64,000 nucleotides of DNA from Candidatus Doudnabacteria bacterium (lineage in GTDB: Bacteria > Patescibacteriota > Doudnabacteria > UBA920), in contig CAWINB010000004.1 in NCBI GenBank assembly GCA_963837465.1, positions 202,853 through 266,852 on the forward strand, written 5' to 3'. The position numbers and the translations under genes are program-made. The notes beneath the pieces are model-generated. The model was given only the letters and a program-made list of their open reading frames with translations, was not told the origin of the DNA and did no database searches. Position 1 is the first letter of the stretch, and each line of letters opens with the position of its first letter. Shown here piece after piece: positions 40,013-60,919 of this stretch.

Positions 40013-40044
40013 TAGTGTCCTTTTTCGCTTCTGCGACTAACCTG

Positions 40045-44252: not shown

Positions 44253-44312
44253 GATAAGTTGGAAGATGAAAATTATCAAGTGGAGCCACTTTTCACTTGA
44301 AATTTATTTATA

Positions 44313-44641: not shown

Positions 44642-44702
44642 GATTTTACTAAGTTTTTTAGCGCGGACAGAGTTCCCCTAAAAAAAGCAACAATCCAAAC
44701 AA

Positions 44703-44776
44703 GCGGCCATGGTTCAATGGTAGAACTCCTCCTTGCCAAGGAGGGGATAGGGGTTCGATTCCCCTTGGCCGCTCCA
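44703..44776 (+). tRNA. tRNA-Gly(GCC), CCA encoded
   Basis: Cloverleaf with acceptor GCGGCCA/TGGCCGC, anticodon stem CTCCT/AGGAG, loop TGCCAAG, T-arm AGGGG-TTCGATT-CCCCT. Confidence 0.85.
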
Positions 44777-44930
44777 GTAGCAAACTTTCAGACATTTCAG
44801 ATTTTTTTGCACGGGCTTCGCAGAGCGAAGCCCATTGTGTCGGGGGGACGGAAACGATTTTTTGATTTTTTAAAACAAGGTGCGAGCCGAAGATTTTTTG
44901 TGCAGACGATTTTTTGGGGGGTAAGTCGGG
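44772..44930 (+). repeat. Perfect ~160-bp inverted repeat, copy A (partner 50672..50828)
   Basis: Copy A, from CTCCAGTAGCAAACTTTCAGACATTTCAG to GACGATTTTTTGGGG, is the exact reverse complement of copy B. It starts at the CTCCA 3' end of tRNA-Gly and encodes the penultimate ~50 aa of the LSR. Confidence 0.85.
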
Positions 44931-46329
44931 CGAAAGCGTTATTTCGCCGAGTTTTTCTGCGTCTTGTATCCACTCTTTGAGAGGTGCGAGCCAGATTGTC
45001 CGTTGTTGTTCAAGACGGGCTATTTGCTCCTCCAGCGACTTCTTATCGGACACAAGAACGTTCTTTTGTGTCCGATAGGTTTCCTGCTCAATGTCTTGGT
45101 CTAAATAGGCGTTAAGAAGTCGCTGGAGCTTGCGGTCAATCTCATCTGTCCTTGAACGCAAGTCTTGGACAACCACGGCCACGGAGCGGGCGGAGTCCTT
45201 GTCGTCCTTGTCCGCCATAGCGTTTAGCTGTTCCGCCCACTCTGGTGGCATTACAAAGGTTTTAAGGATAGTTGTAAGCTGGTTGTCCAGTTCCGTGTCC
45301 CTGACGGACAACTGCGAGCAATGGGTGTTTTTCTTAGTGCAACGATAGTATAGGTAATTATGGACATTGCCGTTTTTTTGGTGCTTGGTCTTGGTTTCGG
45401 CGGTTATGCTGCGGCCGCACTCGCCGCACTTGAGCAAACCACAAAACGGCTGGGGCTGGTTCTTGGGATTGTCGCGCTGGTGGCCGCGTTTTTCTAAAAC
45501 CTCCTGTACTTTATCCCAAAGCTGCTTGGTAATGATTGGCTCGTGTCGCCCTTGGTGCAACTCACCTGCGTATTGGAAAAATCCGTAATAAAAAGGGTCG
45601 TTTAAAATATATGTTATCCTGTCCCGTTTTAGGATTTTTCCGCTCTTGGCTACTATGCCCTTATCTTTTAAAAACAAAGAAATGGCCTCAAGGGTATTAC
45701 TACCTTGAGCGTATAGTTCAAACATCTGTTTAATGATTTTGGACTTCCTTTTGTCTATGACAATAGTTTTAGTCCGGCTGTCGTTAAGATAGCCGATAGG
45801 CGCACGGCTGGGATACTCGCCGCGCCGGACTTTTCTCTAAGCCCCCGTTTAGTGTTGTTGCTTAGGTCTAAAATAAACTGGTTAGCCATTCCAAACTCAA
45901 CGCTCATAAGCAGAACGTTATCAGTCGAGCGATAGCTCCGCTCATTGGTTTGGATATGCTGGATTATGCCGCGCTGTAAAAACCAGCTAATCTGCCCGCC
46001 GTCCACGGGGTTGCGGGCGAGCCTGTCCAGTTTCCAGCAGACAAGGCCTTGAGCTTCGCCTTTTTCAATCCGGCTCATCATCTCGGAAAACACCGGACGG
46101 CCTAAAGATTTAGCCGACTGTTTTTCCACAAACTCGCAAGCAATAGATAAGTCCTGCTCTTTTGCCAAAGCCCGCAACTCCGTGAGCTGGGCTTCTATGG
46201 ATAAAACCTGTTTATCCTCAACATCGGTGGACTTGCGGGCGTAGAGAAAATAGTTATCGTTTACCAAAATTGATTTTTTTGCTATCATATAATTGTAGTA
46301 AATTGTTATATATTGATACTAGCAAATAG

Positions 46330-46545
46330 TTGAAGAATATGCAAACAACCCCGAACATTGGGAATAATATAAAAAAATACAGGGGCAAGCTCGGCTTAAC
46401 ACAGGAAGATTTGGTAAAAAAATCAGGCGTAAAATACACCACCCTTTCTAAGATTGAAAGCGGAGCGTCAAAAAAACCGACAGTTCACATAATCGCTAAA
46501 ATCGCTAAAGCCCTCGGCGTTTCTATTGAAAATTTAATAAAATAA
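46330..46545 (+). CDS. XRE-family HTH regulator (possible controller of the R-M operon)
   Basis: 71 aa ORF with the HTH KKYRGKLGLTQEDLVKKSGVKYTTLSKIESG. It lies 5 nt upstream of mod. Confidence 0.7.
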   Translation: MKNMQTTPNIGNNIKKYRGKLGLTQEDLVKKSGVKYTTLSKIESGASKKPTVHIIAKIAKALGVSIENLIK

Positions 46546-46549
46546 ACTT

Positions 46550-48277
46550 ATGAAAAATCCAGAACGCGCGCCGGAAGATAACAAAAAGGCGCAGTTAGAA
46601 AATGAAGTGGCGAGGCTTAACAAAAAAATTGCCAAATACGAGGCCATAGAGTTAAAGCAAAATCGTTTTGGCTTGGTTTGGATTGATGTGCCGGAAGCCT
46701 TTGAAGATGATGTTGAAAACAAACTGCCGATTTTAGAAGAAGTGCCAAAGTTGGCAATAAACAGCAAAGACGGCAAGCCAACACATTTGCTTATTGAGGG
46801 CGACAACTATCACGCTTTAACCTGCTTAAATTATACTCACAAAGACAAAGTTGATGTTATTTACATTGACCCTCCGTATAATACTGGCTCCGCTGATTTT
46901 AAATATAAAGATAAGAGAATTTTAGACAAGTTTCCCGATGGGACTTTAGTGCCAGTTGACCACCCTTTACGCCATAGCTATTGGCTTTCTTTTATGAAAA
47001 AGCGTTTGGAATTGGCTAAAGATATTTTGAAAAAAACCGGAGTTATTTTTATTAGCATAGATGACAATGAACTTGCACAACTAAAATTATTATGTGATGA
47101 AATTTTTGGAACAGAAAACTTCATTGAAACAATTATATGGAAAAAAAGAGCTACTCCTCCAAATGACCGTGAAATTGGAAGAAATCACGAATATATTTTG
47201 TGTTATGGCAAAACCCAAAATGTAAATTTAAATTTGCTTCCAAGAACCGAAGAAGGGATAGCGAGATATAAAAATCCAGACAATGACCCGAATGGAGCGT
47301 GGGCGGCTTCTGATTTAAGCGCAAATGGAAAAGGTGGAAGATTAGTCCAATCTTTAGTATTTCCGATAAAAAACCCATTAAATAAAAAAGAATACTTGCC
47401 GCCTAAAGATAAGTGTTGGCTTTATAACAAAGAAAAAATTGATAAGTTCATATCCGAGGGAAGAATTATTTTTCGTAATAGTGGAGCGCCATTTTTAAAA
47501 AGATATTTGAGTGAAGTTAGACAAGGCCAAACCGCACCGACTATTTGGGTTGACGCAGGCTTTTCTCAAGATTCCGCTCAAGAGATAAAAGATTTGTTTA
47601 ACGGGGAAAATATTTTTGAAAGCCCAAAGCCTTTAAAGCTAATAAGCAGACTTTGTTTTTTGGGTTGCAAAAAAAAGGACGCTGTAATTTTGGATTTTTT
47701 CGCTGGCTCTGGTACAACAGGCCAAGCAATTATGGATTTAAATGAAGAAGACAAGGGAAGCAGGCGGTTTATTCTGATTACCAATAATGACGAAATAACA
47801 AACGGGGGAAAGCATAAAATAATGACAGATATTTGTTACCCAAGAATAAAAAAGGTTATTAAAGGTTATAATTCAAAAAAGGGCTTGGGTAATTCCATAA
47901 AGTATTTCAAAACGGCTTTCGTTGGGAAAAATAACATATTGAAAGCTGATGACGCAGATAAAATAGAATTAGCTCACAATGCAGGCGGTATGTTGGCTAT
48001 TGCAGAAAATACTTTTGATCAAGTTGAACAGAATAATTATTGGCAAATTTTTGAAAGTAACAAACAATATACAGCCGTATATTTTAGAGAAGAATTTGGC
48101 AAGTTTGATGAATTTATAGAAAAGGTTAAGAAACTAAAAAAACCGGCTGTTGTTTACATTTTTAGCTGGGAAAAAGAATTTGAATTTAACGAATTTGAAG
48201 AAGACAAAAACATAAAAATTAAAACTATTCCCCAGCCGATTTTAGAAATTTACAAACAGATTTATAACCTTGTTTAA
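46550..48277 (+). CDS. mod: Type III restriction-modification methyltransferase (Mod), beta-class N6-adenine/N4-cytosine MTase
   Basis: Motif IV DVIYIDPPYNTG comes before motif I ILDFFAGSGTTGQA. The 575 aa size and the position directly upstream of res support the call. Confidence 0.85.
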   Translation: MKNPERAPEDNKKAQLENEVARLNKKIAKYEAIELKQNRFGLVWIDVPEAFEDDVENKLPILEEVPKLAINSKDGKPTHLLIEGDNYHALTCLNYTHKDKVDVIYIDPPYNTGSADFKYKDKRILDKFPDGTLVPVDHPLRHSYWLSFMKKRLELAKDILKKTGVIFISIDDNELAQLKLLCDEIFGTENFIETIIWKKRATPPNDREIGRNHEYILCYGKTQNVNLNLLPRTEEGIARYKNPDNDPNGAWAASDLSANGKGGRLVQSLVFPIKNPLNKKEYLPPKDKCWLYNKEKIDKFISEGRIIFRNSGAPFLKRYLSEVRQGQTAPTIWVDAGFSQDSAQEIKDLFNGENIFESPKPLKLISRLCFLGCKKKDAVILDFFAGSGTTGQAIMDLNEEDKGSRRFILITNNDEITNGGKHKIMTDICYPRIKKVIKGYNSKKGLGNSIKYFKTAFVGKNNILKADDADKIELAHNAGGMLAIAENTFDQVEQNNYWQIFESNKQYTAVYFREEFGKFDEFIEKVKKLKKPAVVYIFSWEKEFEFNEFEEDKNIKIKTIPQPILEIYKQIYNLV

Positions 48278-48279
48278 TT

Positions 48280-50664
48280 ATGCCAGCATTTAACCTTTTA
48301 CCATTCCAAAAGACAACGATTGATGATTTAAACGAAGCCTTTTTAAGACTTTGGAAAAAACAAGGCAGGCAGTTGCCTTTGGTTTTTAAATCGCCAACTG
48401 GAAGCGGTAAGACTTTGACCGCCGCCCATTTTATAAAAGGACTTAATCATTTGCCGCAATGGAAAATTGATAAAGCATTTATTTGGATTACTTTTAGCGA
48501 TGACTTGGCAATGCAGAGCAAGGATAAGTTCAAAGACTATTTTGAAAACAATCTAGAAAATGCTCTGTTAACTGTAAACGATATAAACAGAGGCAAACTA
48601 TACGAAAATGATATTTTATTTTTGAACTGGCAAAAGGTTGTGCAGGATAATGCCGCAACCCGAAAACTTAAATTACGCAAACCCAAAGACGAAAGATTTA
48701 AAAAAGAAACGGGCAGTTATTTTGAAGATGTAATGGCAGAAACTAAAAAGGCTGCTCGAGAAATTATTTTGTTTGTTGATGAAGCCCACACCCACAAATC
48801 AACAGAGCTGGCGCAGGAGATTATTGACCTTATTAACCCTAAAATAATTGTGCATATAACCGCAACACCAGATGAAAAAGACGAACTGACGGCAAGGCGG
48901 TTAAAAAGTTTTGTAGAAGTAGCCCGAGAACAGGTTGTTGATGAGGGTTTAATAAAAGAAAAAATTTTAGTGCAGACTGAGGAAGACTTAAAAAAATACA
49001 AGGGCAAAGATTTAGATGAAGTCCTTTTGACACTGGGAATGGAAAGGCGGGAAGAGCTGGCAAATGAACTAAAAGCATTGGGTAAGGATATAAACCCGCT
49101 AATGCTTATTCAGTTGCCCAATGATGATAAAGAGCTTATAGCCAAAGGTGATAAGACTAAAGAAGAAGTTGTGAGCCAATTTTTAGCCTCTAAGGGCATA
49201 AAAAGCCAGCACATAGCCAAATGGTTTGACGGCAAAAAAGACAACTTGGACTTTATAGCCGACAATGACAGCAAGGTTGATTTTATGCTTTTCAAACAGG
49301 CCGCAGGCACGGGCTGGGACTGTCCCCGTGCGAGTGTTTTGGTTATGTTTAGGGAAATAAAAAAGGAAACTTTTTACACTCAAACAGTTGGCCGCATTTT
49401 AAGAATGGCCGAACCACAGGCAAAAGAAGATTATAAGAACAGTCCGAATTTAAGAACCGGCTATTTATATACCAACTATAAGCGTAGCCAAGTTGAACTG
49501 CCCGATTTAAAGAAAAATGAAATTCCAAGCCAGCACGCTTACAGGAAACAAGGTATTAAAAATATTAAATTGCAATCAGCCTATATTTCACGCATTGACT
49601 ATGGCGACATTCCAGCCTCGTCCAAATTCCAAGAGAGCTTTGTGAACTCAATGAACTCCTATTTTGGAATTACCAAAACAGACTTGCAAGCAATGGGGAA
49701 AGCCGAAGCGAAGCTAAAAAAGGCGGGCGTTGATTTAAGCCGCAAGCTAACCAACAGCATTATTGCCAATGCCAAGTTTGAAGATTTTGACCAAATGGCT
49801 TATGACTTTAAAAAGAGAGGCATTGATGTTGAGCTGGAAATATCAACCAATGATGTAGAAAAAACTTTTAATTATTTTTGCCTAATGCTCTTAAAAGAAC
49901 AAACAGATGAGCAGGCAAAATATACCAATGTCGCCCGTGCTTGGGGCGTGTTTAAATCAGCTATCCGTATTTGGTTTCAGGCTGTGTTAAACACAGACAG
50001 TAATTATTATTACAGGGTTTTTGTTAAGGATATACAAAAGGGGGCGGCCAGCAAATTCAGACCGGCAATAACCAAAGCCTTAATTGATTTTAAGCCTATT
50101 GCTCAAAGCATACTAAAAGACCGGAAGAAAAAACAGGAAGAAGCAGAAGCTCCGATTTTTGAAATTTTAGAGCAATACGGTTTTACATCTGATTACGAAG
50201 AACTGCCCCAAAAACTTTGCGCTTTGGATAAATGTTTTGTGCTTAAAGATTATAAAGGCAAAGAGAATGAATTGAATTTTATTAAATATCTTGAGGGCAA
50301 AGGCAAACAGATTGACTGGTGGTTTAAAAACGGCAATCAAGGCAAAGAATATTTTGCGATTAAGTATTTTAACAGCGTGGACGGCAAAGAAGCCCTGTTT
50401 TACCCCGACTTCATAATACGCTTTAAAAGTGGCGGGATAGGGATTTTTGACCCTAAAAAAGACCAGACGGCAACAGACCCCGAAACGGCCGACAAAGCCA
50501 AAGCGTTGGCGTTGAAACTAAATAAGTTAGGCAAGGTCTATGTTGGCGGTATAGCTGTTTTTGAAAATGGCGTTTGGAATTATAATAGCTCTGAAAAATA
50601 CAAATACCAAAAAGGTAAGATGAACCAAGATAAAAATTGGCAACCTCTTGAAAATTTATTTTAG
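48280..50664 (+). CDS. res: Type III restriction enzyme Res subunit (SF2 helicase-like with a C-terminal nuclease region)
   Basis: Walker A FKSPTGSGKT and a DEAH box LFVDEAHT. 794 aa, with its start 3 nt after the mod stop. Confidence 0.8.
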   Translation: MPAFNLLPFQKTTIDDLNEAFLRLWKKQGRQLPLVFKSPTGSGKTLTAAHFIKGLNHLPQWKIDKAFIWITFSDDLAMQSKDKFKDYFENNLENALLTVNDINRGKLYENDILFLNWQKVVQDNAATRKLKLRKPKDERFKKETGSYFEDVMAETKKAAREIILFVDEAHTHKSTELAQEIIDLINPKIIVHITATPDEKDELTARRLKSFVEVAREQVVDEGLIKEKILVQTEEDLKKYKGKDLDEVLLTLGMERREELANELKALGKDINPLMLIQLPNDDKELIAKGDKTKEEVVSQFLASKGIKSQHIAKWFDGKKDNLDFIADNDSKVDFMLFKQAAGTGWDCPRASVLVMFREIKKETFYTQTVGRILRMAEPQAKEDYKNSPNLRTGYLYTNYKRSQVELPDLKKNEIPSQHAYRKQGIKNIKLQSAYISRIDYGDIPASSKFQESFVNSMNSYFGITKTDLQAMGKAEAKLKKAGVDLSRKLTNSIIANAKFEDFDQMAYDFKKRGIDVELEISTNDVEKTFNYFCLMLLKEQTDEQAKYTNVARAWGVFKSAIRIWFQAVLNTDSNYYYRVFVKDIQKGAASKFRPAITKALIDFKPIAQSILKDRKKKQEEAEAPIFEILEQYGFTSDYEELPQKLCALDKCFVLKDYKGKENELNFIKYLEGKGKQIDWWFKNGNQGKEYFAIKYFNSVDGKEALFYPDFIIRFKSGGIGIFDPKKDQTATDPETADKAKALALKLNKLGKVYVGGIAVFENGVWNYNSSEKYKYQKGKMNQDKNWQPLENLF

Positions 50665-50671
50665 TTTATTG

Positions 50672-50828
50672 ACGTTACCCCAAAAAATCGTCTGCACAAA
50701 AAATCTTCGGCTCGCACCTTGTTTTAAAAAATCAAAAAATCGTTTCCGTCCCCCCGACACAATGGGCTTCGCTCTGCGAAGCCCGTGCAAAAAAATCTGA
50801 AATGTCTGAAAGTTTGCTACTGGAGTCC
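50672..50828 (-). repeat. Inverted repeat copy B
   Basis: Exact reverse complement of 44772..44930. Confidence 0.85.
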
Positions 50829-50873
50829 CTGTATCAGGACGCACGCACCCATTTTATCAAAAATTCCTGACTT
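50680..50873 (+). pseudogene. Orphan LSR C-terminal fragment (...PKKSSAQKIFGSHLVLKNQKIVSVPPTQWASLCEARAKKSEMSESLLLESLYQDARTHFIKNS*)
   Basis: The in-frame translation of repeat copy B on the plus strand is identical to the tail of the LSR at 44658 up to the CTGGAG junction. After the junction it continues with a different 15-aa tail. Confidence 0.6.
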
Positions 50874-51118
50874 CCGATAGGCCAAAACAGGGTCAAAAGG
50901 GGGGTCGTTTACCCCTTCATTCAGGTAGTCACTAGCCATTTTCAGAGTGACTACCCTCCGGTCTTAAAATAGCCCTGCTGCTATTGGCTTTCCTGCTCCG
51001 GCACTACCCAAAATCCAATGCCGACTTCACTCCGCTACAGTGTGCTCACTTCCGCTCCGTGATTGCCCCTCGGCCTTCTCTCCCGTCCGTCTTTTGACTT
51101 TACTCGTTGGTGGGGGTG
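50824..51118 (+). repeat. Near-perfect ~295-bp inverted repeat, copy C (partner 53928..54220)
   Basis: The reverse complement of 50824..51118 matches 53928..54220 except for a ~10-nt indel near one end. The sequence runs from CCCCCACCAACGAGTAAAG to GGTGCGTGCGTCCTGATACAGGGA. Confidence 0.85.
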
Positions 51119-51196
51119 TGTGAATTGAAACAAAAAAATTGCGCTCAAGGCCGCAAGGCCGAGCGCGAAAAAAATAAAAACTTGAATTTCTAACAA

Positions 51197-51988
51197 TCAA
51201 TTTAAATCATTTGATTTCTTCCATCGTTTATCAAAGACAGCTTTTAAAGCTGGCAAAAAGATTGATACCGTTTGTGTCGGCAGGAATATAACGAATGACT
51301 CTTTATTCGCAAAATCTTTAATGCCATAGCCAACTATCACCAAAGCGTTATCTGCTATTATGTATCTGTCGTGTAGCTCGTAAAACTTATCGTATTTTTT
51401 TAATTTTATGTTTTTAAATTCGCGTTTAAATCTTTTTAAGTTATTCTGAAAATTTGTTAAATTTCTTTGTTCCTCATTTCCTAATTGAGAAGATAAAAAT
51501 TTTATTTTGGTTTTTTTACCAAACTTTTCTAGTGTAAAAAATGTTCCATTACCATAGTATGGGTCAACAATACGCAAATCTCCTTTTAACATTTTAATAA
51601 TATTTGGAAGTTCTCTGTTTGAGTCTGTCCAAGCATTAACGCCGCTTAAAAATACTATTTTGTTTGTTGGTATATCAGGATTTTCTACTTTATTTTTATC
51701 TATCCAAGCAGGAAACCAATATTTCTTCTTATTGCGACCCCTGCCAACAATTTTAACCTTGACCACATCATTTTCTAAGAGAGGCTCCATCAATGATGTT
51801 AAGTTATTTGCTTTAATTTTTTTACCAGCACCCTCATTAAGTAAATGGGTAAGTTGCGATGAAGATATCACAGCGTCAAATTCCTCATCTTTCAATAATT
51901 TACATACCCGAAAAGCAAAACTCCCTTTGCGAGTGAGTTGTTTCGAATTTTCTATTTTATTAAAAACAGTCTTTTTTGCAATAACCAT
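51197..51988 (-). CDS. Hypothetical protein, 263 aa (cargo of the inverted-repeat cassette)
   Basis: AT-rich, basic ORF with no confident motif. Confidence 0.4.
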   Translation of the reverse strand: MVIAKKTVFNKIENSKQLTRKGSFAFRVCKLLKDEEFDAVISSSQLTHLLNEGAGKKIKANNLTSLMEPLLENDVVKVKIVGRGRNKKKYWFPAWIDKNKVENPDIPTNKIVFLSGVNAWTDSNRELPNIIKMLKGDLRIVDPYYGNGTFFTLEKFGKKTKIKFLSSQLGNEEQRNLTNFQNNLKRFKREFKNIKLKKYDKFYELHDRYIIADNALVIVGYGIKDFANKESFVIFLPTQTVSIFLPALKAVFDKRWKKSNDLN

Positions 51989-52035
51989 ATTATATTTTTA
52001 TGTAAAGCAGAACTTTTAATATCTCACTTTTTCAG

Positions 52036-52257
52036 TTAGACAAAATATTTGTACTTTCCGTCTTCTTTTTTTCTCATCACCCGCTCTCTCCTTAGTAAAT
52101 AAAGTAAATTAACCCTGATGTCTTCAGGTTTTTCGTTGTGGCCAAATCTGTCTTTCAGTTCTTTTCTGATTTCCTCTGCTATCTTTGGCTGCTTACTAAT
52201 TACTTTCATAATTTTTTCTGCAACACTTGGTTTTGATTTATTTGTTTTCATATTCAT
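52036..52257 (-). CDS. Small basic hypothetical protein (C-terminal ...GKYKYFV)
   Basis: 73 aa ORF. Its C-terminal motif is shared with the next ORF. Confidence 0.35.
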   Translation of the reverse strand: MNMKTNKSKPSVAEKIMKVISKQPKIAEEIRKELKDRFGHNEKPEDIRVNLLYLLRRERVMRKKEDGKYKYFV

Positions 52258-52260
52258 AAT

Positions 52261-52617
52261 TTATCTTTTAAAATATTTATAAGTGCCTTTTTGAGGCTTG
52301 TTTCTCCCAAGAACTTTTTTTCGAACCAATAATATTAAAGAGGGCATTAGCGAAGTGGTTGGCTTTACAACCCCCTCATCGCGCAGTTTTTTTTGTATTT
52401 CAGATATATCCTTAGGGTCTTTAAAAAACCCGTCTTTAACCAGTGTATATATTTCCCCAGTCAAACCAGAGAACTGGCTATGCTCTAAACCCTGTTTTCC
52501 AGTCCGTTTAGCCAAAATTGCCGACTTTTGTTGTTTAATGCCTACTGATTGTTTCAGTTCAACCAAAAGCGATTCGATTTCTTCAATGATATCTTTGCTA
52601 TTTCTTACTTTTTGCAT
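52261..52617 (-). CDS. Small basic hypothetical protein (C-terminal ...GTYKYFKR)
   Basis: 118 aa ORF, 3 nt from the previous ORF. It appears paralogous to that ORF at its C-terminus. Confidence 0.35.
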   Translation of the reverse strand: MQKVRNSKDIIEEIESLLVELKQSVGIKQQKSAILAKRTGKQGLEHSQFSGLTGEIYTLVKDGFFKDPKDISEIQKKLRDEGVVKPTTSLMPSLILLVRKKVLGRNKPQKGTYKYFKR

Positions 52618-52966
52618 ATTAGGTTTTATAATTTAATTAATAATTAAGTATAACGAATAGTTAAATAATATTAGTTGACCACCGTAAACATCTGAATTTA
52701 AAGCTGATTATGTCTTTTCCTATTGAACGTATAATATTACAAAATGGAATAGTTGTCAAGAATTAAATAGTAATAAACTAAAAAAAGCCTTATTTAAAGG
52801 CTTTAATGCTATTTTAGTTTATATCTTTAACTGAATAGGGATATAAAAACTATTTTAAAGTATATTCAGCTTGAGAAAGGAACGTTAATCAAACCGGACG
52901 ATTTTTAAGGGAGCTTAGAAGCTCTCTTTGCCCGCGCAACGGGAGGGTTGGGGCAAGGACAAAACC

Positions 52967-53833
52967 TTAATGCAAAATCGTTTTCGGCATATCGTCCTTC
53001 GGCGACTTCCATATCGGCTCAAAAATCGCCTCCGGCTTGGAGATTGAATAGTTTTTATCAGACGTAAACAGGAACATATTACTGCCCTGCTGGTTTGAGT
53101 TGGCCACCTTGGAGGCGATTCGCAAGTTTTCGCTCCGCGTTTCGTTAGGGGTTATAGTAATGACCCGAAAACGGGTGAAGCCTAAAGAATCTTTGAGCCG
53201 TTCTTCCCGCCCCCACCGCCAGTAAAGTTTTAGTTTGTTTACAAATCTTTCCTCGGTCATCGTCCCTCTATCGGCTTCAAGGAAGACGGGATATTTATAT
53301 TCCTTGGTATCCAAGACAAAGAAAGCGTCCGGCACGAGTTCGGGATTTTGGCCGTGCCGCCCCCGCAATGCGGACTTTAAGTCATAGCCCTGTAACCACC
53401 GGTGGAGCTTGAGGTCGTCTCGTTTCCGTATCGCCAATGTAAGACAAGTTCTAAACTGCGAAATCATCAGGGCGTGGGCAATCAAGGGCAGGGAGCGTTC
53501 AATCTCACGCATACGGCGCAAAATCCCTTGGAACTGTTCCGAGTCTCCGTAGACAACTTCCGCTCCTTTCTTGCCGAGGGAATAGATGATGTGGGAGGAA
53601 GGAAGCTTTGAATGGCTCTGGTTCTTAGGCCTGTCCAAGAATCCCAAGTCAAACATAGCGGCAAGACGGCGAAGGAAGTTACGTCTGCCTCCGGGGTGCA
53701 GGGCAAGGATTTGCTCGGTGTTGAGGAAACGATATTCTCCCAACTCTTGGAGCAGTTCCATATCCCGTGCCTGTAGCTGGAGGGGGTCTTTTACCTCTCT
53801 CCTGACTAACCTTTTTCTTAAAGCGGTAGCCAT
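52967..53833 (-). CDS. Replication-relaxation (Replic_Relax)-like family protein, GC-rich
   Basis: An N-terminal wHTH-like region is followed by a conserved ...FFVLD...YPVFLEADRGTM motif, as remembered for PF13814. GC content is far above that of neighbouring genes. Confidence 0.5.
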   Translation of the reverse strand: MATALRKRLVRREVKDPLQLQARDMELLQELGEYRFLNTEQILALHPGGRRNFLRRLAAMFDLGFLDRPKNQSHSKLPSSHIIYSLGKKGAEVVYGDSEQFQGILRRMREIERSLPLIAHALMISQFRTCLTLAIRKRDDLKLHRWLQGYDLKSALRGRHGQNPELVPDAFFVLDTKEYKYPVFLEADRGTMTEERFVNKLKLYWRWGREERLKDSLGFTRFRVITITPNETRSENLRIASKVANSNQQGSNMFLFTSDKNYSISKPEAIFEPIWKSPKDDMPKTILH

Positions 53834-53927
53834 AAAAGAATCTGTTATAATTCCATTATAGCAGGTTCCAAGACCCCCTCTGTCCGAGGCCTTCTCGACC
53901 CGTCCGCTACCTTATTTATCTGTTTCA

Positions 53928-54220
53928 CACCCCCACCAACGAGTAAAGTCAAAAGACGGACGGGAGAGAAGGCCGAGGGGCAATCACGGAGCGGAAGTGA
54001 GCACACTGTAGCGGAGTGAAGTCGGCATTGGATTTTGGGTAGTGCCGGAGCAGGAAAGCCAATAGCAGCAGGGCTATTTTAAGACCGGAGGGTAGTCACT
54101 CTGAAAATGGCTAGTGACTACCTGAATGAAGGGGTAAACGACCCCCCTTTTGACCCTGTTTTGGCCTATCGGAAGTCAGGAATTTTTGATAAAATGGGTG
54201 CGTGCGTCCTGATACAGGGA
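53928..54220 (-). repeat. Inverted repeat copy D
   Basis: Reverse complement of 50824..51118. It overlaps the 3' end of the truncated LSR gene. Confidence 0.85.
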
Positions 54221-54852
54221 CTCCAATCGGAACTTTCAGCCCTTTGACGCACCCTGTCAAAGGGTTTTCCGTAAGTAAATTGGGGCTTTTGGTCAATTAG
54301 TTTAGAGTTCTGAAGTAAGAAACCCAACAGCTCCCGTTTTTCATCGGGTTTCGCATTTTCATACAGTATTGCCGCATTTTTAGCGAGTTCTAAAGTTTTT
54401 ACGCCAAATTGGTAATAATCAATGTCCGCATAAGTATATTTGCTAATCAGCGTATCCAAGTCTTTAATTTTTTTAGAATACTCGGCAAACCTTTGGTTAT
54501 AAAATTCATCGCTAATCTTCCTGTCCAGCCTGTCCTCATACATAACGCTAAGCCGATTTTGTAGCTTGGCCTTTTCCGCTTCCAGCTTTTCCCGTGTTAC
54601 ATCCTCTGTATTGCGCTTAAAATACAAAGACTGCTTAAGACCCTCTGCCACATAATCAACAGCGTCCTGGGGCATTTTGTGCATTATGTGTAGTGAATTT
54701 AGTATATCCTCATCAAAGACAGTTTCATTTACGGCCTTTTGCATACAGTTAGTGCCAAACTTGGTGCAATGGTAATAAATAAATTCCTTGCCGGATTTTT
54801 TAACAACCTTTTCTGCCGTTACTGTGCGGCCACATTCGCCGCAAGCCAGCAA
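54166..54852 (-). pseudogene. 5'-truncated large serine recombinase (zinc ribbon and coiled coil only)
   Basis: The ORF begins directly in the zinc ribbon (CGECGR...YYHCTKFGTNC) and is followed by a coiled coil. No resolvase or recombinase domain lies upstream. Confidence 0.75.
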
Positions 54853-54951: not shown

Positions 54952-56013
54952 TTGGCGAAAAACTACAAATTGAACTTATTGAAAACAAGGCTAAGAATCT
55001 TAAAAAGTATGCCTACTAAAACACAACACAGATATCCAAAGGTTTTTATACGCAGTAAAAACGAGCTGGCTAAAAGATTTGAGTCACCTGGGTTAACAAA
55101 AACCCAAGCTCTGGAGCTTATCAACGATGTTGTTAGTAATTTTAATAACTACTGGCGAGACAGCAAACACTCTCAGCCGAAAAAAAATAAATACGTTAGG
55201 AACGCTAAAGGTAAACCTCTAGGTAGACTCCTTAAATTGATAGACAAGAAGTTGTTAGCGCCCCACGACAAACTTATACCGGGATTTATTTTTGGCGGCG
55301 TATCCGGAAAAAGTCACATGGACGCCGCCTACTATCTTTTGGGTAAACAGCGGGAACGAACGCTACTAGCTTTGGATATTGGAAGATTTTTTGAGCAAAT
55401 ATCCGAGGATAGAGTATTTCACTTTTTTTATAATAAGGCCCAATGCAGTAAAAAAGCCGCGACCCTGTTGGCTAGGTTGTGTTGCGTAGAGGAAGGACCC
55501 AAAGGTAATGGCACTAATAAAAAAGTTTTAGCTCGCGGGTTTGCTACATCAACCAGATTGGCAGCTTGGTGCAATCTAGACACATTCTTAAAACTACATT
55601 GGCTAGCAAAAAATAATCTAAAACGGCACGACCCCCGACTGGCTATATTTGTTGATGACATTGGTATTTCTGCCAGCAGAATCTCACGAGATAATATGCT
55701 TACACTCCAAAAAGAAGTTGAAGACATTCTTGTAAATTCTGACCGTAATCAAAAATTACCTGTAAATCCTGAAAAAACTTTTATTTACTCCTATGAAGAA
55801 GGCATAGAACACTTGGGACTTAATCTTGGCAGGAACAAACTTTCATTCGGAAGCAAGACTCTTTCCCGTAAAGCCAAAGTAAACCACTTGCTAAAAATTA
55901 GTACTAAAAAATCAGAAAAAATAAAGTTGCGTATAAAAAGAAAGTCATATTTCGCTTACCGCGAGCAAATTAACAAACTTAATAAACAGGCAGCCAAGTT
56001 GCCACTAGCATGA
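54952..56013 (+). CDS. Compact reverse transcriptase (RT domain only)
   Basis: RT motif A LALDIGRFFEQI, motif B' LARGFATSTRLAAWCN and motif C AIFVDDIGIS (an xxDD variant). There is no endonuclease, maturase or other fused domain. 353 aa, or about 334 aa from the second Met. Confidence 0.7.
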   Translation: MAKNYKLNLLKTRLRILKSMPTKTQHRYPKVFIRSKNELAKRFESPGLTKTQALELINDVVSNFNNYWRDSKHSQPKKNKYVRNAKGKPLGRLLKLIDKKLLAPHDKLIPGFIFGGVSGKSHMDAAYYLLGKQRERTLLALDIGRFFEQISEDRVFHFFYNKAQCSKKAATLLARLCCVEEGPKGNGTNKKVLARGFATSTRLAAWCNLDTFLKLHWLAKNNLKRHDPRLAIFVDDIGISASRISRDNMLTLQKEVEDILVNSDRNQKLPVNPEKTFIYSYEEGIEHLGLNLGRNKLSFGSKTLSRKAKVNHLLKISTKKSEKIKLRIKRKSYFAYREQINKLNKQAAKLPLA

Positions 56014-56630
56014 TTTCAGACAAAAACAACTTAACACCATACGGCGGACCCAAGCGTTCTGAAGACGGACCTTTTCACGAATTATTTTTAATGCTTGGGA
56101 AAATTCCTGCCCAAAAAAGGCCTAAGCTTATACTGATAGATAAATTTCAGATGCTCATTTGTGATGGTGAAAGAATGACACTAAACACCACAATGAGGCC
56201 ACACGGCACAATTACTGGCCTGAGCTTTGACAGAGGCGAAGTGCTTGAGCTATTTGCCAAAGTAGAATTTTTAATAAACACCCTTGTTTTAAGTTATATA
56301 AAACCTACTGGAGGGAGCTTTGATGACTTTAATAAATTACTCGACAGTACGGACCTGTTTTCAAAAATAAAAGTTTTGATGGAGTGGGGTGTATTAAGTC
56401 CTAAATTAGGTAGTAAACTAATCTCAATAAAAAAGGTGCGCAATAGTTTCGCACACAGATGGTCGGAGGATGATGTGCTGTTTGAAGGTAAACCGCTCAA
56501 TAAGGATGCTGTTTTTGAAAAATTTGTAAAAGAAATTACTACTATTTGGATGGAGTTAATAAAAATTAGCCAATCGATCCAGCCTGACATTAAGGAATTG
56601 CTGAAAAAGTACGCCGTGCCGACAGAATAA
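56010..56630 (+). CDS. Small HEPN-like protein translationally coupled to the RT
   Basis: Its start overlaps the RT stop by ATGA. The C-terminal KKVRNSFAHRWSEDD fits the HEPN Rx4-6H motif (R-N-x-x-x-H). 206 aa. Confidence 0.5.
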   Translation: MISDKNNLTPYGGPKRSEDGPFHELFLMLGKIPAQKRPKLILIDKFQMLICDGERMTLNTTMRPHGTITGLSFDRGEVLELFAKVEFLINTLVLSYIKPTGGSFDDFNKLLDSTDLFSKIKVLMEWGVLSPKLGSKLISIKKVRNSFAHRWSEDDVLFEGKPLNKDAVFEKFVKEITTIWMELIKISQSIQPDIKELLKKYAVPTE

Positions 56631-57492: not shown

Positions 57493-58691
57493 GGAATCCG
57501 TTGTTAGTAATCGCTTTTTTCGAAAAAATTTATTTTGTTAATTCCTAAAGTTTTTAAAGTTTCAGGCCACAGGGCCTGTTTTTTAATGGTAAATTCCAGG
57601 GAGCAGTGTTTGTTTAAATATTTAAATTTTTTGTCGCAATCGGTAAAAGTCTTGCTGCGGCGCCGAATCATCCAGGCGTTAAGCCAGCGATTTGCCGACT
57701 TAAAACTCTGGAAACCCTTGATGGTTTTAAGGCGGCCGTTTAAGTGGGAATTAAAAAGTTCTATGAGGTTGGTGTTGTTGGGACAGTCTTTGACTTTCAG
57801 GTAATTAAACAAGGCTTCGCGTCTACGCTTAACTTCCCAGATAATATCCTGGAGTTTGGGGCTGTGTTGGGCATGATTTCTTAAGACATGCTCCAGTCCG
57901 GCGTCAATTTTTTCCTCATCCGCTCCTTCGGTAAACACATGGAGCTTAAGTGAATTAAAAAAGTGTCTGTAGCGCTCCTCGGTTTTAACCCTAAGCACAG
58001 CGCGGATGTTTTCCAGGAAGTGGACATGGCAGAGCTGCAGCCGCGCGTAGGGAAAGACCTTGTTTAGAGCCTGTTTTATGCCTGCTCTGTCATCGGCGAC
58101 AACTATTTTAAGGTTGTAGCCCAGGTCTTTTAGTTTCTGAAAGTACTGGGAGAAAGCCGCTTCGTCCTCAGAAAAGAACAATTCTCCGTGTAAAATATCG
58201 TGAGTCAGGTAATCAATGCCGAACAGGAATGGAATCTTCCGCTCAAAGCCTTTAACCGCGATGTATTTGCCGTCAAGGATTAAAATCCCCTGGCAGTGGG
58301 CCAAATCACAGAGGGTTTTGGTCAAAAAGTCGTTTTTTGGCAGCTGATCCAGCTCTGTGATGACGCGCGCGTAGGTCTGGGGCCCTGACAGGGTGTTTTC
58401 ATCGCCTAAGCGTCTAAAGCCCACGCCGTCAATATGCTCTATCCAAAGGTTGTGAGAATCCTGGCCGTGGTAAATGGAAAAGGTGCGCTTACAAAAATGG
58501 CAGAGGTAGCGATGACTCTTGCCATCCTTACCAAATTTAATTGTTTTTAAACTGCTGCAATGTGGACAAACATGGCGACGTTTTTTTTGGCATGACTAGA
58601 TTCCTTTCTTAGTTAACTGGTTAAACCTTGGTTTTATCGCTTAAGCTTAACAGGAACATCTGATTTCACCAACGGATTTCCGAACGGTATC
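57493..58691. mobile_element. IS1595-family insertion sequence (~1.2 kb) with ~20-bp terminal inverted repeats and an 8-10 bp target-site duplication
   Basis: IRL TTACCGTTCGGGAATCCGTTG pairs with IRR (reverse complement) GATACCGTTCGGAAATCCGTTG. CCCTTACCCG is duplicated at 57483..57492 and 58692..58701. Confidence 0.8.
57504..58596 (-). CDS. IS1595-family transposase (N-terminal zinc ribbon and DDE domain), N-terminus frameshifted in an A8 run
   Basis: ORF 57504..58424 carries the DDE region (DGKYIAVKG...VVADDRAGIKQAL...CHVHFLENIR). Upstream in frame lies CPHCSSLKTIKFGKDGKSHRYLCHFCKRTFS, an IS1595-type zinc ribbon. The ATG at 58594..58596 is in the -1 frame relative to this and is separated from it by a poly-A(8) tract at 58583..58590. 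Confidence 0.7.
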
Positions 58692-60038: not shown

Positions 60039-60637
60039 TAGAGCCTGTTTAATAAATCATTTAGTCAATCTTTTAAGCATTAAACTGGTCATCGCCAGGT
60101 AAATCATGTTCTCACTGGTCTCAGGGTTGTACTCATAGTCTTTGGAAAGCCTCCGATAGTTACCAAACCAGCCAAAGGCGCGCTCCACGATCCAGCGCTT
60201 AGACAAAACATGAAAGACTGGGAGTCAATAATCCCGGCGGCGGGCTGTTCCTTTTTACCGGCTTTGACGCGGACTGCGCTGCGGAGCGTATCATGAACTT
60301 TCTTCCAGGTGCCGTCTTTGCTGAATTTTTGAAAGTAGTAATAGACCTGTTCCCATTCAGGAAAGTCATTGGGAAGGAGTCTCCAGGCACAACCACTTTT
60401 TAACAAATACATAATGGCATTTATGACTTCCCGCGTATCAACCCGTCTTGGCCTGCCCCGTTTGCCTGGCCTGGGCGGCAAACTGAGCACCAAGACCCAT
60501 TCAGCATCGGAAAGGTCGGTTTCATAAGGTTTTCTGGGCACTTTTTGTTTTTGGTTTCGCATAAGGTTACAATCATCAGGTTAATGATTATATCCTTATT
60601 TTAAACCAAAATCAGTATTTATTAAACAGGCTCTAAG
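60039..60637. mobile_element. Internally deleted IS5-family element (~600 bp) with 19-bp terminal inverted repeats
   Basis: IR TAGAGCCTGTTTAATAAAT at 60039..60057 has its reverse complement at 60619..60637. Inside is a transposase with the DUF4096-type N-terminus (LSDAEWVLVLSLPPRPGKRGRPRRVDTREVINAIMYLLKSGCAWRLLP...IIDSQS). The typical C-terminus ([23 protein letters not shown]...LMLKRLTK*) is in another frame, and the DDE core is missing. Confidence 0.7.
60057..60562 (-). pseudogene. IS5-family transposase, internally deleted and frameshifted
   Basis: See the mobile-element entry. The listed ORF 60104..60562 is the N-terminal part only. Confidence 0.7.
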
Positions 60638-60806: not shown

Positions 60807-60919
60807 AATAGCAGCCTCGCGACATCAGCAAACATTGATACGAAAAACGCGGACTTGTGTCCGCATTTTCTTTCCATATTCTTCTGACGCATCCTGGTCT
60901 GGTTCCAGGCTGCGCTATT

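What the first reader, a model, noticed from the sequence alone, without database searches (positions are those of the whole stretch)
50824..54220. Second nested cassette bounded by ~295-bp near-perfect inverted repeats carrying three unknown genes and a GC-rich Replic_Relax-like gene
50824..51118 and 53928..54220 are reverse complements apart from one short indel. They enclose a 263 aa unknown protein, two small paralogous basic proteins (73 and 118 aa) with C-terminal GxYKYF, and a Replic_Relax-like gene whose GC content is much higher than its neighbours. The outer repeat copy D overlaps the 3' end of a truncated LSR, and copy C abuts copy B of the R-M repeat. This looks like serially inserted LSR elements whose ends became long inverted repeats. 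The cargo genes have no assigned function here.
Basis: seen in the sequence. Interest (0 to 1): 0.6.

Follow-up and report, generated by a model that had tools for sequence, protein, structure and literature searches.

The report
Mobile element with duplicated inverted attachment module
The "cassette" is real, but it is one half of a single 9.4-kb mobile element sitting in a tRNA gene; this element family carries its attachment/origin region twice, in opposite orientation, which splits each element into two segments that hold swappable defence-type genes.

Summary
The repeats are real. Arms 50821-51120 and 53926-54225 are 300/300 complementary. A second pair, 44772-44919 and 50678-50825, is 148/148. 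Two independent short-read unitigs end exactly 30 nt inside the arms.

The repeats are not by-products of nested insertions. All three junctions share the core TGGAG, the reverse complement of the tRNA-Gly 3' end. The junctions read LSR1 tail-core-tRNA, LSR1 tail fragment-core-X, and LSR2 tail-core-X.

The simplest reading is one element (44777-54220) that holds two inverted copies of a ~450-bp module: serine-recombinase tail, crossover core and X, a ~300-bp iteron-rich region upstream of the Replic_Relax (MOB_C-type) gene. Integration split one copy and left the other intact inside.

About 17 related Patescibacteria-type loci carry the internal copy. Their cargo differs, the relaxase segment occurs in both orientations, and some have intact recombinase-core-X joints.

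The three "unknown" genes form a conserved operon with its own promoter: two small paralogous winged-helix-like proteins plus a winged-helix/phospholipase-D-like protein (TrmB-like fold). The operon is also found in DPANN-labelled genomes without the element.

LSR1 is frameshifted and LSR2 is truncated, so this copy is probably immobile. What the duplicated module does remains inferred.

The parts
44703..44776 (+). tRNA-Gly(GCC), the integration target. Its 3' CTCCA (44772-44776) is the crossover core.
   Evidence: ARAGORN and Rfam; junction sequence.
44772..44919 (-). Arm A: the 3' tail of LSR1 (49 codons) plus the core. With the tRNA it forms the attL-type junction.
   Evidence: 148/148 complementary to arm B. 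The tail peptide is conserved in recombinases only 45% identical overall.
44658..46288 (-). LSR1, a large serine recombinase split by a frameshift near residue 150. The ORF reads through the core into the antisense of tRNA-Gly.
   Evidence: Pfam Resolvase, Recombinase and Zn_ribbon_recom. Frameshift mapped against intact relatives. The same frameshift is present in the independent unitig L115.
46330..50664 (+). Cargo slot 1: HTH regulator, Mod-like methyltransferase (N6_N4_Mtase) and Res-like helicase/endonuclease (ResIII). The type III assignment comes from this Mod/Res pairing.
   Evidence: ORFs; Pfam domains listed for L115. Replaced by a 102-aa ORF in L023 and by other genes in L025, L062, L091 and L095.
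50678..50825 (+). Arm B: an inverted copy of the LSR1 tail with no recombinase body, ending in the core TGGAG (50821-50825).
   Evidence: Equivalent body-less tail fragments lie next to X in 17 loci, counting this window.
50826..51120 (+). Arm C: the internal copy of region X (iterons, conserved block). B and C together form an intact attP-like module.
51139..51156 (-). Terminator-like hairpin closing the cargo operon. The conserved backbone resumes here.
   Evidence: L023 homology resumes at window 51183.
51197..51988 (-). p263: an N-terminal winged-helix domain plus a C-terminal phospholipase-D-like (MIT_C-like) domain carrying an invariant HDRY motif.
   Evidence: 133 homologs and alignment. 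The PADLOC PDC-S05 profile matches the C-terminal domain only, E 8e-13. AlphaFold model pLDDT 88. Foldseek hits: TrmBL2 1e-9, Nuc, Zucchini, MITD1.
52036..52257 (-). p73: a small basic protein, probably winged-helix.
   Evidence: Orthologs at 70-74% identity lie immediately upstream of p263 homologs in L112 and L113. Weak profile hits to MecI/BlaI and AspA, E ~0.1.
52261..52617 (-). p118: a paralog of p73 with an added N-terminal helix.
   Evidence: 59% ortholog in L114. The single-sequence model has low confidence.
52731..52759 (-). Promoter-like site (TTGACA-17-TATTAT) for the p118-p73-p263 operon.
   Evidence: 11 of 12 matches, the best in the region.
52784..52804 (.). Bidirectional terminator-like hairpin between Replic_Relax and the cargo operon.
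52967..53833 (-). Replic_Relax protein: wHTH plus PD-(D/E)XK nuclease, the MOB_C relaxase class. It is a backbone gene of the element.
   Evidence: Pfam. PHROG 'replication initiation by nicking', E 1e-14. 243 homologs, mostly labelled Patescibacteria. Literature: PMC3424549, PMC5357655.
53834..53925 (-). Unique spacer upstream of Replic_Relax. It holds a TATAAT box and a segment that pairs with the inner end of X in a ~20-bp stem.
   Evidence: z = -3.4.
53926..54225 (-). Arm D: the Replic_Relax-proximal copy of X plus the core (54221-54225). It is the far (attR-type) end of the element.
   Evidence: In L023 the same end abuts CTCCA plus a terminator-like flank.
54166..54852 (-). LSR2 remnant (C-terminal 228 aa only) from an older element at the same tRNA. 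It is not part of the element described here.
   Evidence: Pfam. L024 has the full gene against tRNA-Gly.

Best explanation
Window 44777-54220 (9,444 bp) is one integrative, probably mobilisable element of a family found in Patescibacteria-type genomes. Its backbone is a large serine recombinase (LSR1), a Replic_Relax/MOB_C-type protein, and a ~450-bp cis module. The module consists of the last ~150 bp of the recombinase gene, a 5-bp crossover core, and X, a ~300-bp iteron- and hairpin-rich region.

The element carries this module twice, in inverted orientation. Recombination between the recombinase-proximal copy and the 3' end of tRNA-Gly split that copy into arm A (at the tRNA) and arm D (at the far end). 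The second copy stayed intact inside as B+C. This accounts for two inverted-repeat pairs whose inner members abut at the core.

The two copies divide the element into a recombinase segment and a relaxase segment. Each segment has a cargo slot next to the internal copy. Here the slots hold a type III-like restriction-modification system and a self-contained operon of three DNA-binding-type proteins.

Shown: the anatomy, its conservation, near-identity of the copies within an element against ~85% between elements, different cargo in the same slots, and both orientations of the relaxase segment among relatives.

Inferred:
- The excised form is a circle with two long inverted repeats, like the yeast 2-micron plasmid.
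- Recombination between the repeats flips the segments and keeps the copies identical.
- X is the site where Replic_Relax binds and nicks (oriT or origin).

In this genome the element is probably immobile, because LSR1 is frameshifted.
For: 1. Junction logic. A reads LSR1 tail-TGGAG-tRNA-Gly(rc). B/C reads LSR1 tail fragment-TGGAG-X. D reads LSR2 tail-TGGAG-X.

2. L023, a related genome, has X - Replic_Relax - two different cargo genes - X(rc) joined to a tail fragment - a 102-aa ORF - recombinase - tRNA-Gly. Its repeats are 149 nt at 100% and ~300 nt at 96%. Its outer X end abuts CTCCA plus a terminator-like hairpin, not a second recombinase.

3. L024 shows the LSR2 type directly against tRNA-Gly, which explains the window's D junction as a tandem insertion.

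4. Family survey.
- Long inverted repeats with one arm ~80-100 bp upstream of Replic_Relax occur in L025/L034, L029, L048, L080, L089, L091 and L103 (285-318 nt, 99.7-100% where both arms are complete).
- Many contigs break ~200 bp upstream of the gene.
- L091 and L062 repeat the full two-pair layout at tRNA-Asn and tRNA-Gly(CCC), with three junction types sharing a core.

5. Body-less recombinase-tail fragments adjoin X in 17 loci, counting this window.
- In 12 the fragment lies beyond the cargo.
- In 5 (L057, L060, L062, L068, L069) it lies directly upstream of X and Replic_Relax, which is the flipped orientation.
- Full recombinase-core-X joints occur in L037, L103 and L107, and in the other orientation in L095.

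6. L095 (10.6 kb, no tRNA) starts inside X and ends inside a copy of its own recombinase tail. A circle with a second, unassembled repeat copy would give this.

7. X has 2-3 direct 9-mers at 12-bp phase plus one inverted copy. They change together between elements (ACCCCTTCA against AGGTAGTCA). X also has an invariant ACTTCACTCCG block and a stem with the Replic_Relax spacer.

8. Replic_Relax relatives sit next to type IV coupling proteins in L031 and L095.

9. L037 combines an X/Replic_Relax part 90% identical to L025 with a recombinase only ~70% identical. This suggests exchange at the module.
Against: - No circular or excised form, and no inversion within one population, was observed directly. 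Because the repeats are longer than k, the unitig graphs cannot distinguish the isomers.
- The opposite orientations are seen in different, diverged elements. They could be old fixed rearrangements rather than ongoing flipping.
- Within-element identity of 100% in short-read assemblies may partly reflect reuse of a collapsed repeat node.
- Relatives without the internal copy exist (L097, L052), so the second copy is not essential.
- Canonical large serine recombinases do not recombine attP with attP.
- Insertion next to LSR2 requires a non-canonical target (attL or attR of the older element).
- The origin of the duplication is unexplained.
- The nicking or oriT role of X is untested.
Confidence: 0.72

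Rival explanations
1. One reading: two or more recombinase elements inserted one into another, and their ends happen to form long inverted repeats. The 3.4-kb unit would then be a separate nested element.
For: Two recombinase genes flank the unit. LSR2 is a genuine remnant of another element at the same tRNA. Other recombinase islands sit at tRNA genes elsewhere in the window.
Against: L023 has both repeat pairs with a single recombinase and a terminator-like native flank at the far end. The internal tail fragment equals LSR1's own tail (148/148), not LSR2's. The same layout recurs in more than 10 diverged elements at different tRNAs. Serial same-site integration gives direct repeats, not inverted ones.
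Confidence: 0.1
2. The X-bounded unit is an autonomous transposon with ~300-bp terminal inverted repeats, moved by the Replic_Relax PD-(D/E)XK nuclease. It merely tends to land beside recombinase sites.
For: Terminal-inverted-repeat-like arms enclose a nuclease-fold protein plus cargo. Many contigs consist of just this unit bounded by the repeats (L001, L026, L054, L066, L100).
Against: Wherever the flanks are visible, the outer ends of X coincide exactly with the recombinase crossover core. They join either the recombinase tail or a tRNA-proximal flank. No target-site duplications were seen. Contigs bounded by the repeats are what assembly breaks would produce. Relatives have Replic_Relax plus recombinase without the second arm (L052, L097).
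Confidence: 0.08
3. The repeats are the arms of a programmed invertible switch (phase variation) that turns the enclosed genes on or off.
For: Long inverted repeats with a recombinase site at their outer ends resemble the phage P1 C segment. Both orientations occur among relatives.
Against: The cargo operon has its own promoter-like site and terminator-like hairpins inside the segment. The Replic_Relax promoter region is also inside. Inversion would therefore not change which genes are read, and the recombinase ORF is unchanged by it. The recombinase is an integrase-type large serine recombinase, not a small invertase.
Confidence: 0.05
4. The repeats are an assembly artefact, such as a chimeric path through a mixture of integrated and excised forms.
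For: The 148-nt arm is close to a typical read length. Identical repeat copies are what graph assemblers output.
Against: The inner junctions of arms B, C and D with unique DNA are present in two independent raw-read unitigs. The architecture recurs in assemblies from unrelated projects and assemblers, including long-read ones.
Confidence: 0.02

Closest known systems
Integrative and mobilisable elements (IMEs) with a serine recombinase and a MOB_C / Replic_Relax (PF13814) relaxase, as catalogued in streptococci (PMC5357655)
   Same: A site-specific recombinase, a Replic_Relax-class protein and cargo, integrated at a specific site. Some relatives also carry a type IV coupling protein.
   Different: The host is a Patescibacteria-type genome. 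The target is the extreme 3' end of tRNA genes. The element carries an internal inverted duplicate of its attachment/oriT-like module. No such duplicate turned up in my searches of the held papers.
Yeast 2-micron plasmid (FLP/FRT within 599-bp inverted repeats); comparison from my own knowledge
   Same: Two long, near-identical inverted repeats divide the replicon into two unique segments. The recombinase target lies inside the repeats. Both relative orientations of the segments exist.
   Different: The recombinase here is a serine integrase, not a tyrosine recombinase. The element integrates into the chromosome through one repeat copy. Flipping, and any role in copy-number amplification, are not shown here.
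Invertible segments of phage P1 (C segment, ~0.6-kb inverted repeats, Cin) and phage Mu (G segment, Gin); comparison from my own knowledge
   Same: A kb-sized segment is bounded by inverted repeats, with the serine-recombinase crossover site at the outer edge of the repeats.
   Different: Those systems use small invertases with an enhancer, and they switch alternative tail-fibre genes. Here the enzyme is integrase-type and inversion changes no reading frame or promoter connection.
phiC31/Bxb1/SPbeta-type large serine integrase systems (attP x attB giving attL and attR)
   Same: The recombinase has Resolvase, Recombinase and zinc-ribbon domains. A short identity core is shared by all junctions. 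The attachment site lies next to the integrase gene.
   Different: The crossover lies inside the recombinase ORF's 3' end, so the C-terminal tail of the protein differs between integrated and excised states. A second attP-like copy is carried in inverted orientation.
TrmB/TrmBL2 family and PLD-fold proteins (Nuc, Zucchini, MITD1 MIT_C); PADLOC candidate defence gene PDC-S05
   Same: p263 has a winged helix followed by a PLD-like domain, as TrmBL2 does (Foldseek E 1e-9). Its C-terminal domain matches PDC-S05 profiles (E 8e-13) and weakly matches DrmC and NsnC. A preprint reports that one PDC-S05 gene protected E. coli against T7, T5 and T4 (10.1101/2024.09.26.614923).
   Different: Only ~130 residues match PDC-S05. 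The catalytic motif is HxR(x)4D rather than HxK(x)4D. p263 is always preceded by 2-3 small paralogous proteins.

Membership tests
Large serine recombinase integrative element | Recombinase with Resolvase catalytic domain, Recombinase domain and zinc ribbon | tested here: met
   Pfam hits on the two halves of LSR1. The gene is interrupted by a frameshift near residue 150, which is also present in the independent unitig L115.
Large serine recombinase integrative element | Element bounded by hybrid junctions that share a short core with the target site | tested here: met
   TGGAG/CTCCA is present at junctions A, B/C and D. L023 shows tRNA-Gly joined to the element on one side and the element joined to CTCCA plus a terminator-like flank on the other.
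Large serine recombinase integrative element | Excision to a circle that regenerates attP and attB | not testable with these tools
   Only indirect evidence. Intact recombinase-core-X joints occur in L037, L095, L103 and L107, and L095's contig ends lie within repeat arms.
MOB_C / Replic_Relax relaxase | Match to PF13814 above the curated threshold, with conserved PD-(D/E)XK-type residues | tested here: met
   89 bits against a cutoff of 25.3. Invariant D169, E186, D188, R189 and T191, and nearly invariant P-D-A-F-F and E-A-D-R-G-T stretches, in 22 homologs. Fold assignment from PMC3424549.
MOB_C / Replic_Relax relaxase | Nicks a cognate oriT and works with a coupling protein / type IV secretion system | not testable with these tools
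   Iteron and inverted-repeat structure lies upstream of the gene. Coupling-protein genes lie beside relatives in L031 and L095. No coupling protein is present in this window's element.
2-micron-like inverted-repeat replicon | Two long near-identical inverted repeats separating two unique segments, with the recombinase site inside the repeats | tested here: met
   148 + 300 nt are identical within the window, with the core inside the module. The same holds in L023, L025, L062 and L091.
2-micron-like inverted-repeat replicon | Both segment orientations coexist in one population | tested here: inconclusive
   Both orientations are seen across different elements (12 against 5 loci). Orientation within one sample cannot be read from k=31 unitigs.
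2-micron-like inverted-repeat replicon | Inversion during replication amplifies copy number | not testable with these tools
   No replication or coverage data.
Serine-invertase gene switch (Gin/Cin/Hin type) | Small invertase with short crossover sites, where inversion exchanges coding ends or a promoter | tested here: not met
   The recombinase is integrase-type (~500 aa in intact relatives). The predicted promoter and terminators of the enclosed genes are internal.
PDC-S05 candidate defence gene | Full-length match to the PDC-S05 profile | tested here: not met
   Only residues 101-232 of p263 match profile positions 164-283 of 306. There is no Pfam RhuM hit, whereas the tested PDC-S05 is reported to be RhuM-like (10.1101/2024.09.26.614923).
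PLD-superfamily (HKD) nuclease | PLD fold | tested here: met
   Foldseek hits to Nuc 1byr (2.7e-5), Zucchini, NucT and MITD1, using a model with pLDDT 88.
PLD-superfamily (HKD) nuclease | Catalytic HxK(x)4D motif | tested here: not met
   The family has invariant H206-D207-R208-Y209, with D/N at 213-214. This is HxR, as in MIT_C domains.

The most novel reading that the evidence does not exclude
The duplicated inverted module is a selected, working feature and not a tolerated accident. In this reading these Patescibacteria elements excise as circles with two attP/oriT modules. The inverted copies then serve one or more of three roles. They could flip the segments, a bacterial serine-recombinase counterpart of the 2-micron flip-flop. 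They could let either half be exchanged between elements, a natural two-site cassette exchange that would explain the two cargo slots and the mosaic L037/L025 backbones. Or, after single-strand transfer, they could snap back into a ~450-bp duplex that presents a double-stranded attP and origin.
Probability: 0.3. Interest if true: 0.8.

Novelty: new variant of a known kind. Interest (0 to 1): 0.62.

Why it matters
Mobile elements of Patescibacteria (CPR) are poorly described. My searches of the held paper library found no description of this family.

This finding defines a widespread family: 356 tblastn-confirmed loci in one metagenome scan. The backbone is clear (tRNA-targeting serine recombinase, MOB_C-type protein, structured cis region), and there are two cargo slots. 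Where the cargo could be identified it is mostly defence-type: restriction-modification systems, AriA/OLD-like ATPases, Ppl and Mrr.

An internal inverted copy of the attachment module was not described in any paper my searches returned. It has three consequences:
- It explains why these elements fragment in short-read assemblies. Many relatives' contigs end ~200 bp upstream of Replic_Relax or are bounded by the repeats.
- It gives a concrete, testable model for segment inversion and modular cargo exchange.
- It offers new serine recombinase/att pairs with defined cores at tRNA 3' ends.

The three-gene wHTH/PLD-like operon is separately of interest. It is a compact module found in genomes labelled as CPR bacteria and in genomes labelled as DPANN archaea.

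Tried and rejected
- An exact 22-nt search for the core plus the outer end of X in JGI metagenome contigs found nothing. The family is too diverged for exact matching.
- A Replic_Relax profile scan of IMG/VR viral contigs found no relatives, so the elements are not catalogued as viruses.
- The afdb50 fold library was unavailable.
- The single-sequence AlphaFold model of p118 had low confidence (pLDDT 51.5) and was not used for fold search.
- BLASTP of p118 and p73 against p263 was not significant. Only the profile-profile comparison was suggestive (E 5.6e-4, probability 30%).
- Pfam and NCBIfam gave nothing usable for the three cargo proteins. A PDB sequence-profile search for p263 found nothing.
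- X as a structured RNA: no Rfam family matched it.
- X as the msr/msd of the neighbouring retron-like reverse transcriptase: considered and dropped, because X lies ~720 bp from that gene and is tied to Replic_Relax in all relatives.
- A tRNA-like fold for the outer end of X: checked by eye and rejected.
- A junction of body-less tail fragment-core-tRNA, predicted if integration can use the internal copy: looked for and not found in the loci held. L103 (full recombinase-core-X joint plus an X-core-unrelated flank) hints at it, but its left end is cut by the contig.
- Paper searches for this architecture returned nothing relevant.

Full report
**1. The observation**

The window contains two inverted-repeat pairs. 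I1 has arms 50814-51120 and 53926-54232 (307 nt). I2 has arms 44772-44919 and 50678-50825 (148 nt, 100%). I call the arms A (44772-44919), B (50678-50825), C (50826-51120) and D (53926-54225).

Base-by-base comparison shows that 50821-51120 and 54225-53926 are 300/300 complementary, and that A and B are 148/148. The only three mismatches in I1 (50816, 50818, 50820) lie outside the shared core. There is no indel.

GC is 0.50-0.52 for Replic_Relax and the repeat, and 0.31-0.36 for the three small cargo genes.

Two Logan short-read unitigs from different runs equal the two unique segments plus exactly 30 nt of each flanking arm. L001 (ERR10755938) is window 51091-53955. L115 (ERR10755945) is window 44890-50707. 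That is the signature of true repeat boundaries in a k=31 graph. It also shows that the inner junctions of the arms exist in raw reads. Misassembly is excluded.

**2. Anatomy of the junctions**

tRNA-Gly(GCC) lies at 44703-44776. Read in the sense of the recombinase genes, the three junctions are:
- A: LSR1 tail ...GAAAGTTTGCTAC-TGGAG-CGGCCAAGGGG (tRNA-Gly, reverse complement).
- B/C: the same LSR1 tail, 148 nt only, with no gene body, then TGGAG-TCCCTGTATCAGG (region X).
- D: LSR2 tail ...GAAAGTTCCGAT-TGGAG-TCCCTGTATCAGG (X).

TGGAG is the reverse complement of the tRNA's CTCCA end. All three junctions are therefore serine-recombinase joints that share one 5-bp core. B/C has the form of an intact attP (X-core-recombinase tail), inverted relative to A and D.

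LSR1 (44658-46288) has Resolvase, Recombinase and zinc-ribbon domains but carries a frameshift near residue 150. The frameshift is also in unitig L115, so it is real. LSR2 (54166-54852) retains only its C-terminal part.

**3. Close relatives settle the boundaries**

Three loci matter here.
- L023 is a related genome at ~85% nt identity with the same neighbouring genes. Its order is X (1590-1890), Replic_Relax (95% aa), two unrelated genes (320 and 274 aa), X(rc) (4825-5125), tail fragment (5121-5269), a 102-aa ORF, recombinase, tail (7289-7437), tRNA-Gly. Its outer X end abuts TGGAG preceded by a terminator-like hairpin flanked by A and T runs. I read this as the native flank downstream of the tRNA operon. 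No second recombinase is present.
- L024 carries an LSR2-type recombinase (94% nt) directly against tRNA-Gly.
- Together these show that the window's element spans A to D (44777-54220, 9,444 bp) and lies beside the remnant of an older LSR2 element.

Between the window and L023 the backbone is conserved: recombinase, both module copies, Replic_Relax, and the terminator next to X. The DNA in two slots differs. One slot lies between the Replic_Relax stop codon and ~60 bp before X. The other lies between the recombinase start and the inner end of B.

The repeat copies are identical within each genome but only ~85-88% identical between the two genomes.

**4. The family**

The scan for Replic_Relax relatives gave 356 tblastn-confirmed loci in JGI metagenomes, of which 80 were fetched. 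Homolog labels are mostly Patescibacteria, Parcubacteria or Minisyncoccota.

In a large share of contigs the gene starts 150-300 bp from a contig end, or both contig ends are inverted copies of each other. This is what a repeat just upstream of the gene would cause.

Where both arms were assembled, they are long and near-identical:
- L048: 285 nt
- L080: 309 nt
- L089: 294 nt
- L091: 318 nt
- L103: 307 nt
- L025/L034: ~200 nt, cut by the contig end

L091 (at tRNA-Asn) and L062 (at tRNA-Gly(CCC)) repeat the full two-pair layout. In both, the three junction types share a core taken from the tRNA end.

Recombinase-tail fragments without a gene body adjoin X in 17 loci, counting this window.
- In 12 the order is X, Replic_Relax, cargo, X(rc), fragment. 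This is the order in the window.
- In 5 (L057, L060, L062, L068, L069) the fragment-core-X joint sits directly upstream of Replic_Relax. The relaxase segment is in the opposite orientation.
- Full-length recombinase-core-X joints (attP with its gene) occur next to Replic_Relax in L037, L103 and L107, and at the far end of the relaxase segment in L095.

L095 is 10.6 kb and has no tRNA. It begins inside X and ends inside an inverted copy of its own recombinase tail. A circle of about 11 kb whose second repeat copy could not be assembled would look like this.

These states match those expected of a circle with two inverted modules, in two flip isomers, either free or integrated through the recombinase-proximal copy.

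Relatives without the internal copy also exist (L052, L097). L037 pairs an X/Replic_Relax part 90% identical to L025 with a recombinase only ~70% identical.

**5. Region X**

An alignment of ten X regions shows the following:
- Two or three direct 9-mers at 12-bp spacing, then ~17 nt, then one inverted copy.
- All copies change together between elements. ACCCCTTCA pairs with TGAAGGGGT in some elements. AGGTAGTCA pairs with TGACTACC in others.
- An invariant ACTTCACTCCG block.
- A conserved inner end, CCTCGGCCTTCTCTCCCGTCC. In the Replic_Relax-proximal copy only, it pairs with the unique spacer just upstream of a TATAAT box (z = -3.4).

This looks like a protein-binding origin or oriT. Replic_Relax is a PD-(D/E)XK-fold family fused to an HTH domain (PMC3424549) and corresponds to the MOB_C relaxase class (PMC5357655). 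PHROGs labels its relatives 'replication initiation by nicking'. Relatives sit beside type IV coupling proteins in L031 and L095. The role of X is an inference.

**6. The cargo of the flagged segment**

p118, p73 and p263 form a unit with its own promoter-like site (52759-52731, TTGACA-17-TATTAT). Terminator-like hairpins flank it (52784-52804 and 51139-51156).

p263:
- It belongs to a well-conserved family of 133 proteins. The nearest is 72% identical, and labels include Nanoarchaeota, Micrarchaeota and Paceibacterota.
- The model (pLDDT 88) has an N-terminal winged helix and a C-terminal PLD-like domain.
- The best structural matches are the archaeal chromatin protein TrmBL2, then Nuc, Zucchini, NucT, FAM83 and MITD1.
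- The motif is an invariant HDRY (HxR, not HxK), as in MIT_C domains.
- PADLOC PDC-S05 profiles match only the C-terminal domain (E 8e-13). One PDC-S05 gene is reported to protect E. coli from T7, T5 and T4 (preprint 10.1101/2024.09.26.614923). p263 is not a full-length member.

p73 and p118:
- They are paralogs.
- Orthologs (59-74%) and further paralogs stand in arrays of two or three immediately upstream of p263 homologs in nine other genomes, without Replic_Relax.
- A profile of these small proteins aligns with the N-terminal domain of p263 (E 5.6e-4, weak). It also gives weak hits to the winged-helix proteins MecI/BlaI and AspA.

The operon is therefore a portable three-to-four-gene module of DNA-binding-type proteins. 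Whether it acts in defence (my leaning, given its neighbours and the PDC-S05 domain) or in regulation or chromatin is open.

Cargo in relatives that could be identified:
- SinI-type and D12 methylase systems
- Mrr
- An AriA/OLD-like ATPase
- Ppl

**7. Mechanism**

Shown: the single-element anatomy, the shared core, conservation of the duplicated module, near-identity of the copies within elements, the cargo slots, and both orientations across the family.

Inferred:
- Excision yields a circle with two long inverted repeats.
- Recombination between the repeats flips the segments and homogenises the copies. It could be homologous, or catalysed by the recombinase, which would be non-canonical for this enzyme class.
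- X is the Replic_Relax site.

Unknown: how the duplication arose and what advantage it gives.

The recombinase ORF crosses the core. Its last residues therefore differ between the integrated state (41 codons read from the antisense of tRNA-Gly) and the attP state (18 codons read from X).

**8. Comparison and verdict**

This is an integrative, probably mobilisable element of a known general kind: serine recombinase plus MOB_C-type protein, inserted at a tRNA. Its unusual and conserved feature is an internal inverted copy of its attachment/origin module. That gives it a 2-micron-like two-segment layout with two cargo slots.

I rate it a new variant of a known kind, with moderate to high interest. 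Its interpretation is partly supported.

Noticed in passing
window 44336-44608 (+), within about 44312-44643: A group I intron (Rfam RF00028, 71.9 bits) interrupts a tRNA-Phe(GAA) gene. ARAGORN therefore misses this gene in the window. The orthologous tRNA-Phe in L023 and L024 lacks the ~253-bp insert (window 44346-44598).
   Followed up: partly
window 54952-56630 (+): A reverse transcriptase lies directly beside the LSR2 remnant. Its best match is PADLOC retron type VI RT (E 7e-29), and it also matches St85-retron and Drt3a profiles. An overlapping 206-aa gene follows (faint DUF4145). No msr/msd RNA was sought.
   Followed up: no
window 60766-60815 (-): A 30-nt copy of the LSR2 tail plus TGGAG is preceded by 13 nt identical to the outer end of X (TGTATCAGGACGC). 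It lies ~100 bp downstream of tRNA-Ile(TAT). It may be a relic of another attachment site or the far end of the LSR2 element.
   Followed up: partly
window 1800-2195 (+) and 26346-28408 (-): Two more recombinases of the same kind. One is a C-terminal remnant (55% to LSR1) ending next to tRNA-Leu(TAA) at 2210-2296. The other is a full-length gene next to tRNA-Lys(TTT) at 26149-26224. A 160-nt direct repeat (26201-26360 and 39989-40151, 76%) may bound a ~14-kb island.
   Followed up: no
window 44658-44776 (-): The LSR1 ORF continues through the crossover core into the antisense of tRNA-Gly (tail RPRGIEPLSPPWQGGVLPLNHGR...). In the attP configuration it would instead end SPCIRTHAPILSKIPDFR. The recombinase C-terminus therefore depends on integration state. 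The same holds in L025 and L062.
   Followed up: partly
L037 against L025; L038: Backbone mosaicism. X and Replic_Relax are 90% identical between L037 and L025, but the adjoining recombinase is only ~70% identical. L038 has the internal module fused directly to the middle of a recombinase gene. This suggests that the module is a recombination hotspot between elements.
   Followed up: partly
L002, L004-L007 (DPANN-labelled MAGs); L112-L114: The p263 operon occurs in genomes labelled Micrarchaeota, Woesearchaeota, Nanoarchaeota and 'uncultured archaeon', as well as in bacterial-type contexts. This is a possible cross-domain mobile module. Bin labels were not verified.
   Followed up: partly
window 32707-32833 (+): A LOOT RNA motif (Rfam RF03000, 51.8 bits against a gathering score of 46.4).
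   Followed up: no
window 57504-58424 (-) and 60104-60562 (-): A Mutator/IS256-family transposase fragment overlaps the end of a MOSC-domain gene. A second short ORF (152 aa) looks transposase-like by eye but was not scanned against any profile library. Both lie between the LSR2 remnant and the site at 60.8 kb, so the older element appears heavily rearranged.
   Followed up: no
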